From Naegleria gruberi (lineage: Eukaryota): 64,000 nucleotides of DNA. Where the stretch lies: the NCBI GenBank assembly GCA_000004985.1, contig GG738864.1; one strand, written 5' to 3'. Positions 57,201 to 60,200 of the stretch are shown here, piece by piece. A program made the position numbers. Numbering within the stretch: position 1 is the stretch's first letter; the number at the start of each line of letters is the position of its first letter.

Positions 57201-60200
57201 ACTAAAGCTCAAATCAAAAACTTCTCCGTTATGAGCTTTACAATGACCTAGAAGAGTTCCACTTTGCCAATCATAGACCAATAGAAGATTATCTAACTCA
57301 GGACCTCCAACAGCTGCCAATTTGGTTCCATCATTTGAAAAAGCAAGTGTATAAACACCACCATTTTTGAAAAAGATATGTGAATCCAAAACTTGAATTG
57401 GTTCATAAGGGTTACTACTATTCCAAACACAAATTATATTATTCTTTCCCAAATTACCTGTTGCAAATGTTTCTCCATTCGGACTAGAGAATTTCATTAA
57501 TATATTACATCCACTTTTAAAACCTACTGTTTGGCAATACAAGTAACATCATCAGTGTGCTTGATAAATATCTTTTGAGCATTAATTTCTGGATTATAAA
57601 CAACACCACAAGCAGCAGCAGGATAGACCAATTCTCCACTATTATTCATATGGAAAATATTACCATTACATCCCTTCTTACTACACCCATGAATAAATTC
57701 CAACTCGAGATTATTTGGAGGAGGAATATCCAGCAATGAGGAGGCATCCGAAGGAGCATGTAAGGTTGTTTTCAAAAAGCGAGGATGACGGCCAGCAGAG
57801 GTTATCATTTTTTTTCAAGTAGTGTTGCTTGTTTGGTTCAATTAAGGGGTTGTGATGGTGTAACGGAAACCTTTAACTACAGAATGGAGAAAAAAAATTT
57901 GGAGGGAAAAATTTGCATCTCGAGAAAAGACATGTTTTTATTGAATCAATTATCACTCAATCATCAAGGAAGGAAATAATACTTTTGCATTGAGGAATGA
58001 TTTTGAAATAAAATTGATAGAAACAATTTAAAGATTACAAAAAAATGGAACAACAATCATTAATGGTGGCCAAATTACCTCCGACTATTCGATTTCTGTT
58101 AGATAAGGCCTTCCGTAGACAAGTATTGGACAAGTGGAGTGATTGTAGTACTTTTACACAATTTATACAAATGTACAGAGTGGAGGCAGTGAGTGGAATT
58201 TTAGGATTAATAGGAAGTTGGGTTCTTGTAAATTGGAGATGGTTGTCTCATCCTGTTAGAGTGTCGTGGACTGCTGATCAAGAGTCGAGTAAAATTGTAT
58301 ATATTTTGACATCAAATAGTAAGAATTTTACAAAGGAATTGGCTATTGAAGCACTCAAAGAATTGAGATATATTCCCGATGATTTTCCAATTGCCACAAC
58401 TAATGTTCAAGTGTTGAGTGACAAGGAAATGCAAGTCACAATCGGAAAACAATCAAAGGAACAATTGAAAGCTTTTGTGGAGGAGAGGGATTTAATGTTT
58501 TCATCAAGTATTAAATCAACATTGTTTGGTACCTTGTTTAGTATTGGAATTGTTAATTGGATGAGAGCAATGACGAAATAGTTAAATTTTAATTAAAAAA
58601 TATTATTTTCAATTTTATTGTAAGTTTCCAGAAAGCGTTTACGCAAAAAATTAACTTTTTTGATCGACTTGGTGCGACCTGACTTGATTTTGGATGACGT
58701 TAAAAACAGACGACTTTTGATTGATCCCCAAATCAACTAACACCAACCTGCAGTTGAAAGAAGAATTAACTCAATTTATTTTCTTTTGATATATTTGCAT
58801 AATTTGGTGTCAATTCTTCTTACTTTAACCTTTATTTCTCTCCAAGTTCTTTAGAAGTCTATTTGATAATAGTTCCACTGCAGTGCAAGCAATTAAAACA
58901 AGAATTGGATCGACCTTGAATCGATTGTAGTTGATTGCCGGTAGTCTGTGAATCGACTTTGAATCGATTTTGTTGCCAGTAAATTGACTTTTTTTTTCGA
59001 CTTAAAATGACTTTAGACGACTTGACTTGAAGTTAACTTTTGGCGTAAACGCTTTCTGGAAACTTACAATATCTCATTGATTTAAAATTAAAACAATAAT
59101 AGAGAATTATCTATGAACACATTGTAAATAACAAATATGAAAATTATTACGAAATTTTAAATTGAACTTTCATAATTTTACAAAAATTTATTTGTTTTCG
59201 AAAAGCTTGGCAATATTCTTGCGAGCTTGTTGAAACTTAGTATTTGGACTCATATTTTCCTTATCCATATCGTTAGGGGTTGAGAGTTGCTTATTGACAA
59301 CCTTTGGAGAAACCTTTGGTGAGGCTACAACCTTGGAAAGAGGAACAGGTTTTCTAATTGGAGAACAAGTAAAGCTAGAGCTAGATTCCACATCTGACTC
59401 GGCATCATCTTGTCTTTGTAAATTATGAACACTACTGAACTTATTCTTAATGGCAGCAAACAATTCACCTTGGAATGCATTTGGATTCTTCTTCATTGGA
59501 GTACCACCTGGAGACTTTTGAATTGGTCTTAATTTTACAGAACCAGCCTTCTTAATCAAATCAGATATGGACATTGGTTGTTGATGAAGTGGTTCAGCCT
59601 TAGGTTGCTCGTTGTCGTCTTTTTTAACTATAGTGAATTTTGGTTTGGTAAGAACAATTGGTACTGTTGGAATACTCAACAATGGTGGTGGAGGAACACC
59701 AGCAGCAGCAGCTCCACCTGGAATCATCATCATTGGAGGAGGTTGAGGAATGTTAGAAATTGGAGGAGGTGGTGGAATATTGGTGGCTTGTTGTTGAATG
59801 GAGGATTTGACCCTCTTCTCGACTGTATTTCTGGCCACTGTTTTTCTGAGTGATGAAGATTGCTCGTTTTTAGAAACAATGGCAATTTGTTCCTTGAGCA
59901 TCATCAATTGTTGTTCCAAATCTTCCATCTTGGTGAGTGAATCCAAAGTAGATTCCAGACCTTCTAATGGTGATGTATTGTATGATGATTCTTGTTGTTT
60001 CTTCTTCTTATCGGGAGTAAAGTATCCCATTTGATGTCTCAAACGTTGAAAGTAAGCCTTCTTCTTTCGCTTTCTCTCCTTCATATCCTTCAAGGAGGAG
60101 ACATCATAGTTCTGAGTTATGGCATTAAAGACATCCTTTGCATACTCAACAAACCAATCTCTTGTATTGGAGAGAAGGGCCCACATGAAGAGGAAAGCTC

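What the first reader, a model, noticed from the sequence alone, without database searches (positions are those of the whole stretch)
58618..59069. MITE-like element with 27-29 bp perfect TIRs and TA flanks between convergent genes
Exact inverted termini (TTGTAAGTTTCCAGAAAGCGTTTACGC…GCGTAAACGCTTTCTGGAAACTTACAA) bound a roughly 450-bp non-coding core with internal CGACTTG/GAATCGA subrepeats. Both ends are flanked by TA, consistent with a Tc1/mariner (Stowaway-like) target-site duplication. The presence of a MITE implies an autonomous transposase family elsewhere in this genome. It also gives a family-specific probe for genome-wide repeat annotation.
Basis: seen in the sequence. Interest (0 to 1): 0.5.

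Follow-up and report, generated by a model that had tools for sequence, protein, structure and literature searches.

The report
Small transposon-like insertion in Naegleria
A 452-base non-coding DNA segment with perfect mirror-image ends sits between two genes of the amoeba Naegleria gruberi, is missing from the same spot in related amoebae, and looks like an ordinary small "jumping gene" remnant; how many copies the genome holds could not be checked here.

Summary
Window 58618-59069 is bounded by a perfect 27-nt inverted repeat. It is 29 nt with the flanking TA and 42 nt at 95% when extended. No dinucleotide-preserving shuffle produced a match. The window is Naegleria gruberi NEG-M, not a yeast or plant. 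The element has no coding capacity, no Rfam or tRNA match, and lies between convergent genes NAEGRDRAFT_66833 and 66834.

Comparative evidence shows it is an insertion:
- Four related Naegleria loci keep the same convergent gene pair with spacers of 15-155 bp and no trace of the element.
- NEG-M has a 606-bp spacer, which is 152 bp without the element and one TA.
- A contig from a 98.7%-identical strain follows the window through the right-hand TA. It then departs exactly at the repeat boundary with the 2 nt predicted for an empty site.

TA is the only possible target-site duplication; flanks of 3, 4, 8 and 9 bp do not match.

The best reading is a MITE-like, non-autonomous cut-and-paste DNA transposon inserted at TA. 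The N. gruberi genome is not searchable with these tools, so copy number and an autonomous partner were not tested. Assignment to Tc1/mariner rests on the TA alone. The subterminal GACTT motifs run in direct, not inverted, orientation. This is an ordinary kind of element and a probable new member of it.

The parts
58045..58581 (+). Left flanking gene NAEGRDRAFT_66833 (178 aa, no Pfam domain). Its stop codon ends 36 nt before the element.
58616..58617 (.). Left TA, the putative target-site duplication copy.
   Evidence: TA is the only flank length at which the left and right flanks agree.
58618..58644 (+). Left terminal inverted repeat, perfect 27 nt: TTGTAAGTTTCCAGAAAGCGTTTACGC.
58645..58657 (+). 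Imperfect inner extension of the left repeat arm (11 of 13 complementary to 59030-59042).
58658..58730 (+). Left subterminal region with three + strand GACTT motifs (58666, 58681, 58712).
58731..58900 (.). Central AT-rich core. It is non-coding and matches nothing else in the window, in the related loci or in the protein database.
58901..59029 (+). Right subterminal region. It holds six + strand GACTT motifs, three GAATCGA motifs, a 21-nt direct repeat (58906-58926 / 58949-58969, 90%), and short 10-11-nt periodic arrays.
59030..59042 (-). Imperfect inner extension of the right repeat arm.
59043..59069 (-). Right terminal inverted repeat, the perfect 27-nt reverse complement of the left one.
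59070..59071 (.). Right TA, the putative target-site duplication copy. The near-identical ENA strain still matches the window here and diverges immediately inward of it.
59188..60336 (-). Right flanking gene NAEGRDRAFT_66834 (382 aa, no Pfam domain), convergent with 66833. Its stop codon is 118 nt from the element.

Best explanation
This is a MITE-like, non-autonomous cut-and-paste DNA transposon of 452 bp. It inserted into a TA dinucleotide in the roughly 150-bp spacer between two convergent Naegleria gruberi genes.

Proposed mechanism:
- A DDE/D transposase encoded elsewhere recognises the 27-40-bp terminal inverted repeats.
- It excises the element by double-strand cuts at the repeat ends.
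- It integrates the element at a TA, which is duplicated by repair of the staggered cut.
- By TA specificity the most likely source is the IS630-Tc1-mariner/pogo group.

Shown here: the repeats, the TA on both sides, the absence of coding capacity, derived-insertion status relative to related Naegleria, and a strain difference that starts exactly at the outer repeat boundary.

Inferred: mobilisation in trans, the transposase superfamily, and the existence of other copies.
For: - Inverted repeat: perfect 27-nt repeat, 42 nt at 95%, 0 matches in 100 shuffles, and the strongest inverted repeat in 64 kb. The DNA fold is dominated by the terminal stem, z = -6.4.
- Flanks: TA is present on both sides. 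TA dinucleotide frequency in the window is 6.5%. Direct reading shows that no 3-, 4-, 8- or 9-bp flank duplication exists.
- Non-coding: the longest ORF overlapping the element is 47 aa. A concatenated six-frame peptide query gave no protein hit at E <= 10. There is no Rfam family and no tRNA.
- Derived insertion: the convergent pair of orthologues is conserved in a Logan Naegleria contig (spacer 155 bp), N. lovaniensis (133 bp), and a JGI and an ENA contig (15 bp each). None has homology to the element. The NEG-M spacer is 606 bp, which is 152 bp plus 454 bp.
- Near-identical strain (ENA ERZ929261, 98.7% identity over 1.9 kb):
  - Contig L002 matches the window from 60976 to 59070, i.e. through the TA.
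  - Its last 2 nt differ from the repeat end and equal the predicted empty site ...caatTT-TA-tctcattg.
  - The other three aligned contig ends of that assembly match the window to the last base.
Against: - No second copy or half-site was found in the 64-kb window.
- Exact 20-27-mers of the repeat were not found in JGI metagenomes, IMG/VR or GTDB genomes. None of these holds the N. gruberi genome, so family size is simply unknown.
- No transposase was found among the 22 window ORFs of at least 250 aa that were scanned; the 2531-aa ORF at 38974-46569 was not scanned.
- The empty-site evidence in the sister strain is only 2 nt beyond the TA, and no contig bridges the site.
- TA is palindromic, so on its own it does not prove a target-site duplication.
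- The subterminal GACTT motifs are in direct, not inverted, orientation at the two ends. This is atypical for transposase-binding sites.
- One survey puts N. gruberi TE content at only 0.28% (bioRxiv 10.64898/2026.06.24.734286).
Confidence: 0.7

Rival explanations
1. It is a repeat-bounded non-autonomous transposon of a superfamily other than Tc1/mariner/pogo. One option is a family with a 2-bp target-site duplication, such as ISL2EU. Another is that the TA is part of the repeat and there is no duplication at all.
For: - The repeat finder includes the TA in the arms, because TA is self-complementary.
- By my reading from memory, the repeat shows no resemblance to Tc1, mariner or pogo termini.
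- N. gruberi is reported to carry MuDR-type (MuDRF) and Kolobok elements (PMC3164196; PMC9587614).
Against: - The sister-strain contig retains one TA at the junction. This fits TA belonging to the target rather than to the element.
- The 9-bp (MuDR), TTAA (Kolobok/piggyBac), 8-bp (hAT) and 3-bp TWA (Harbinger) flank patterns are absent.
Confidence: 0.12
2. It is a non-mobile structural or regulatory inverted repeat. Examples would be a hairpin-forming 3' UTR or a bidirectional terminator between the convergent genes, arisen in situ.
For: - It lies in the 3' spacer of two convergent genes.
- It has a strong predicted stem.
- It is a single copy in the window.
- A second, unrelated hairpin-type repeat lies 1.5 kb away.
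Against: - It is absent from the orthologous spacer in four related Naegleria.
- It is apparently absent at the junction in a 98.7%-identical strain.
- The 372-nt loop has no self-complementarity outside the termini.
- No part of the element resembles the neighbouring sequence, so a local duplication origin is unsupported.
Confidence: 0.07
3. It is a one-off insertion of foreign or filler DNA. The source could be double-strand-break repair or a horizontally acquired fragment that happens to carry inverted ends. In that case there is no family and no transposase in this genome.
For: - No related sequence was found anywhere that could be searched.
- Reported TE content in Naegleria is very low.
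Against: - Perfect 27-nt inverted termini ending exactly at a duplicated TA are the signature of transposase-mediated integration, not of filler DNA.
- The collections searched do not contain the N. gruberi genome, so the negatives carry little weight.
Confidence: 0.08
4. It is an assembly or cloning artefact in the NEG-M scaffold.
For: Nothing specific. The only point is that no independent assembly confirms the filled site.
Against: - The sequence is continuous with both flanking genes and has intact, exact termini.
- It has no resemblance to vector-like or bacterial sequence.
- The flanks are exact to the independent ENA contigs up to the junction.
Confidence: 0.02

Closest known systems
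MITEs with TA target-site duplication derived from Tc1/mariner/pogo elements (for example plant Stowaway, mosquito and fungal mariner-derived MITEs)
   Same: It is short (452 bp), AT-rich and non-coding, with terminal inverted repeats and TA on both sides. It is inserted next to genes and shows presence/absence variation between close relatives.
   Different: - By my reading from memory, the repeat sequence is unrelated to the Stowaway consensus and to Tc1, mariner or pogo termini.
- At 452 bp it is larger than typical Stowaway elements.
- It has strand-asymmetric GACTT subterminal motifs in direct orientation.
- No copy number and no parent element are known.
Non-autonomous elements with subterminal repeat clusters (hAT, Mutator or CACTA-type MITEs)
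   Same: It has clusters of a short motif ((C/T)GACTT, GAATCGA) within about 100 bp of both ends, partly at 10-11-bp spacing.
   Different: - The flank pattern is TA, not the 8-, 9- or 3-bp duplications of those families.
- The motifs are direct, not inverted, between the two ends.
DNA transposons already reported in Naegleria (MuDRF with 9-bp TSD; Kolobok with TTAA TSD)
   Same: They are in the same host genus, and they show that Naegleria carries class II elements (PMC3164196, PMC9587614).
   Different: The flanks here fit neither a 9-bp duplication nor TTAA.

Membership tests
MITE (generic definition) | Short length (under about 800 bp) with terminal inverted repeats | tested here: met
   The element is 452 bp. 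It has a perfect 27-nt repeat, 42 nt at 95%.
MITE (generic definition) | No coding capacity | tested here: met
   The longest ORF overlapping the element is 47 aa. Six-frame peptides gave no protein hit at E <= 10. There is no Rfam or tRNA match.
MITE (generic definition) | Target-site duplication flanking the repeats | tested here: inconclusive
   TA is present on both sides, but TA is palindromic, and the chance of a matching right-hand TA is about 6.5%. The sister-strain junction keeps one TA, which favours a true duplication.
MITE (generic definition) | Multiple homogeneous copies in the genome | not testable with these tools
   There is no second copy in 64 kb. The N. gruberi genome is not in any searchable collection.
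MITE (generic definition) | Evidence of insertion (empty orthologous or allelic sites) | tested here: met
   - Four related Naegleria loci have 15-155-bp spacers without the element.
- The sister-strain contig departs exactly at the repeat boundary with the predicted empty-site bases, but only 2 nt are available.
Tc1/mariner/pogo-derived element | TA-specific integration with TA duplication | tested here: inconclusive
   One instance only, and it is consistent. Several copies are needed to show specificity.
Tc1/mariner/pogo-derived element | Termini shared with an autonomous element encoding a DD(E/D) transposase | not testable with these tools
   No transposase was found among the window ORFs scanned. 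The rest of the genome is unavailable.
Stowaway (plant MITE group) | Conserved terminal consensus (CTCCCTCCGT...) and mobilisation by plant mariner-like elements | tested here: not met
   The terminus here is TTGTAAGTTTCC.... The Stowaway consensus is recalled from established knowledge, not from a tool. The host is a heterolobosean amoeba.
MuDR / hAT / Kolobok-piggyBac / PIF-Harbinger derived MITE | 9-bp, 8-bp, TTAA or TWA target-site duplications respectively | tested here: not met
   With the element boundary at 58618/59069, the flanks are TCAATTTTA and TATCTCATT. With the boundary at 58616/59071, they are TTTCAATTT and TCTCATTGA. Only the 2-nt TA is duplicated.

The most novel reading that the evidence does not exclude
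The element represents a recently active, previously uncatalogued DNA-transposon family in Naegleria, a deep-branching and TE-poor eukaryote. Its ends combine TA-specific repeats with strand-asymmetric, helically phased GACTT iteron-like motifs in the same orientation at both ends. That would point to an unusual transposase-DNA architecture or to a co-opted regulatory or terminator function between convergent genes.
Probability: 0.1. Interest if true: 0.5.

Novelty: new member of a known kind. Interest (0 to 1): 0.3.

Why it matters
Transposons of Naegleria are poorly catalogued. One survey finds 0.28% TE content in N. gruberi, and another could classify only a small fraction of its repeats as known TEs. 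I found no report of a MITE in the genus.

If the family is real, it has three uses:
- It is a handy repeat-annotation probe and strain marker.
- A site that differs between 98.7%-identical strains would imply a recently active DNA transposase in this model amoeba.
- That transposase could be of practical interest for genetic tools.

Otherwise this is a routine mobile-element remnant with no obvious effect beyond lengthening a 3' spacer.

Tried and rejected
- My first guess from composition, a Candida-like yeast with Cirt elements, was wrong. Exact protein look-up shows Naegleria gruberi.
- Retrieving the N. gruberi scaffold by exact protein look-up failed, because it is not indexed.
- A concatenated query of all long stop-free peptides of the element, meant to catch spurious gene calls on other copies, gave no hit.
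- Exact-pattern scans all gave 0 hits:
  - repeat 27-mer and inner 20-mer in IMG/VR;
  - outer 20-mer in JGI metagenomes and GTDB genomes;
  - conserved right-flank 25-mer in JGI metagenomes, to fish for orthologous filled or empty sites.
- A search with the 178-aa neighbour for intermediate-distance relatives returned only the ENA strain.
- Literature searches for Naegleria MITEs, mariner elements or the repeat sequence itself found nothing relevant.
- Rfam at permissive threshold and ARAGORN found nothing.
- Low-stringency blastn and nhmmer of the element against the window and all fetched loci gave only self-matches.
- I considered and rejected 3-, 4-, 8- and 9-bp target-site duplication models, and a same-element-in-opposite-orientation model for the sister strain. 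The perfect repeats would give the same junction in either orientation, and that junction is not observed.

Full report
**1. The observation**

- Reading 58000-59700 and running the repeat finder confirm the description.
- TTGTAAGTTTCCAGAAAGCGTTTACGC lies at 58618-58644, and its exact reverse complement lies at 59043-59069.
- A pattern search allowing 3 mismatches finds only these two sites in the 64-kb window. None of 100 dinucleotide-preserving shuffles gave any match.
- The arms extend inward to 42 nt at 95% complementarity (58616-58657 / 59030-59071, including the flanking TA).
- A window-wide scan shows this is the longest inverted repeat within 5 kb. The only other notable one is an unrelated 37-nt pair at 60613-60726.
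- Folded as single-stranded DNA, the segment is dominated by the terminal stem (z = -6.4). The 372-nt interior contributes no comparable self-complementarity.
- Both ends are flanked by TA.

**2. Identity of the window and context**

- Exact protein look-ups identify the flanking ORFs as Naegleria gruberi predicted proteins on a 441,990-bp scaffold: NAEGRDRAFT_66833 (58045-58581, +), NAEGRDRAFT_66834 (59188-60336, -) and NAEGRDRAFT_48608 (61361-63787, +).
- My initial yeast guess was therefore wrong.
- The two immediate neighbours are convergent and have no Pfam domain.
- Upstream lies an EML-type WD40 gene, and downstream a protein with a weak Zn2Cys6 hit.
- No transposase domain was found among the 22 window ORFs of at least 250 aa that were scanned; the 2531-aa ORF at 38974-46569 was not scanned.
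- The element begins 36 nt after the stop codon of 66833 and ends 118 nt from the stop codon of 66834.

**3. The element's interior**

- The longest ORF that overlaps the element is 47 aa and runs 25 nt past the left end into flank. The longest stop-free stretch is 58 aa.
- A single protein search with all long stop-free peptides concatenated returned nothing at E <= 10.
- Rfam at permissive threshold found nothing, and ARAGORN found no tRNA.
  - GACTT occurs 9 times on the + strand, against 0.32 expected and once on the - strand.
  - CGACTT occurs 5 times on + and 0 on -. GAATCGA occurs 3 times on + and 0 on -.
  - No other 450-nt stretch of the window has more than 3 GACTT.
- Three GACTT motifs lie in the left subterminal region and six in the right, all on the same strand. 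Beyond the 42-nt repeat, the two ends therefore carry the motif in direct, not inverted, orientation.
- TRF sees short 10-11-nt periodic arrays at the right end. A 21-nt direct repeat lies at 58906 and 58949.
- I have no tested explanation for this asymmetry. It is atypical for transposase-binding subterminal repeats.

**4. Is it an insertion? Outgroups**

- A search with the neighbours found homologues of the 382-aa protein in four places: a Logan assembly (SRR29240419), a JGI metagenome, an ENA metagenome, and N. lovaniensis.
- Fetching those contigs and running tblastn shows that all four keep the same convergent pair. These are orthologues of both 66834 and 66833.
- Their spacers are 155, 15, 15 and 133 bp.
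- None has any similarity to the element.
- The NEG-M spacer is 606 bp. Subtracting the element and one TA leaves 152 bp.
- The 452-bp segment is therefore a derived insertion in the N. gruberi lineage.

**5. Is it an insertion? A near-identical strain**

- ENA assembly ERZ929261 contains contigs 98.7-99.9% identical to the window.
- Contig L002 aligns from window 60976 down to 59070, through the right-hand TA.
- Its final two bases, read on the window + strand, are TT, where the filled site has AA (the end of the repeat).
- The contig therefore reads TT-TA-TCTCATTG. This is exactly the predicted empty site ...CAATTT-TA-TCTCATTG....
- The other three aligned contig ends of this assembly match the window to the last base. 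A fourth differs by a genuine TAC microsatellite indel. The 2-nt departure is therefore unlikely to be end noise.
- At about 1.2% divergence, two adjacent substitutions exactly at the repeat boundary would be improbable.
- A copy in the opposite orientation would give the same junction as the filled site, so that model is excluded too.
- Limits of this evidence:
  - Only 2 nt are available beyond the TA.
  - The left contig L001 stops at 58593, 24 nt short of the site, and no bridging contig could be retrieved.
  - The assembly also breaks in an ordinary spacer about 100 nt wide between L002 and L007, so the break itself says nothing.

**6. Target-site duplication**

- With the element boundary at 58618/59069, the flanks are ...TCAATTTTA and TATCTCATT.... 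Only the 2-nt TA is shared.
- With the boundary at 58616/59071, nothing is shared.
- This rules out 9-bp (MuDR), 8-bp (hAT), TTAA (Kolobok/piggyBac) and TWA (Harbinger) patterns.
- TA is self-complementary, and its frequency in the window is 6.5%. On its own it is weak evidence.
- The sister-strain junction, which retains one TA, favours TA belonging to the target.

**7. Copy number and autonomous partner were not testable**

- The window has no second copy or half-site, even at low stringency.
- The N. gruberi assembly is not indexed in the contig look-up.
- The searchable DNA collections returned nothing for repeat 20-27-mers or for the conserved right flank: JGI metagenomes, IMG/VR and GTDB prokaryotes.
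- These negatives do not bear on family size.
- Literature:
  - One survey reports 0.28% TE content in N. gruberi (bioRxiv 10.64898/2026.06.24.734286).
  - MuDRF and Kolobok elements are reported in Naegleria (PMC3164196; PMC9587614).
  - I found no report of a Naegleria MITE or of this sequence.
  - Repbase itself could not be consulted.

**8. Interpretation**

- The best-supported reading (about 0.7) is a non-autonomous, repeat-bounded cut-and-paste transposon (MITE-like) that integrated at a TA.
- Because of the TA, a Tc1/mariner/pogo-type DDE/D transposase acting in trans is the most likely mobiliser. That step, and the existence of sister copies, are inferred.
- The perfect termini and the apparent presence/absence difference between 98.7%-identical strains suggest a recent event.
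- Rivals:
  - another superfamily, or TA as part of the repeat (0.12);
  - a one-off insertion of foreign or filler DNA without a family (0.08);
  - an in-situ structural or regulatory hairpin (0.07), which the outgroup and sister-strain data argue against;
  - an assembly artefact (0.02).

**9. Comparison and novelty**

- It works like TA-flanked MITEs derived from Tc1/mariner/pogo elements.
- Membership in that superfamily is not demonstrated, because no parent element is known and only one instance of TA has been seen.
- It is not a Stowaway in the strict sense. The terminus is unrelated and the host is not a plant.
- I rate it a new member of a known kind, of modest interest.
- Its value is mainly as an annotation probe, a strain marker, and a hint that an active DNA transposase may exist in N. 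gruberi.

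Noticed in passing
window 60613-60726: A second strong inverted repeat: 37-nt arms, 89% complementary, 40-nt loop, about 114 bp in all. It lies in the divergent promoter region between NAEGRDRAFT_66834 and 48608. It is unrelated in sequence to the main element and is not TA-flanked. It is present in the ENA sister strain too, since L002 aligns across it at 98.7%.
   Followed up: partly
window 58658-58730 and 58901-59029: GACTT / CGACTT / GAATCGA motifs are up to about 130-fold enriched and lie exclusively on the + strand in both subterminal regions. They are therefore in direct orientation at the two ends, partly at 10-11-nt spacing. 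No explanation was tested.
   Followed up: partly
L001, L002, L007 (ENA ERZ929261, run ERR1078381, PRJEB11402): A deposited 'metagenome' assembly contains a Naegleria gruberi-like genome 98.7-99.9% identical to NEG-M. It is fragmented into 2-5-kb contigs that break in AT-rich spacers. It would be useful as a second strain for presence/absence tests.
   Followed up: partly
window about 61083-61092 versus L007 1-20: A TAC trinucleotide copy-number difference between NEG-M and the ENA strain in the spacer upstream of NAEGRDRAFT_48608: CAATACTACTTC versus CAATACTACTACTTC.
   Followed up: no
window 12890-14890 (-): This ORF combines CHASE4 and HAMP domains with a C-terminal RGS domain (Pfam names only). 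I read the first two as bacterial-type sensor domains and RGS as eukaryotic, which would make this an unusual architecture.
   Followed up: no
window 61361-63787 (+): The 808-aa NAEGRDRAFT_48608 has a marginal match to the fungal Zn(2)-Cys(6) binuclear cluster domain, 23.8 bits against a cutoff of 21, in a heterolobosean.
   Followed up: no
L003 (Logan SRR29240419), L004 (JGI 3300002220), L005 (ENA ERZ27315067): These are environmental or unnamed Naegleria-like contigs that conserve the 66833/66834 convergent pair at 30-49% protein identity. In L004 and L005 the two stop codons are only 15 bp apart.
   Followed up: partly
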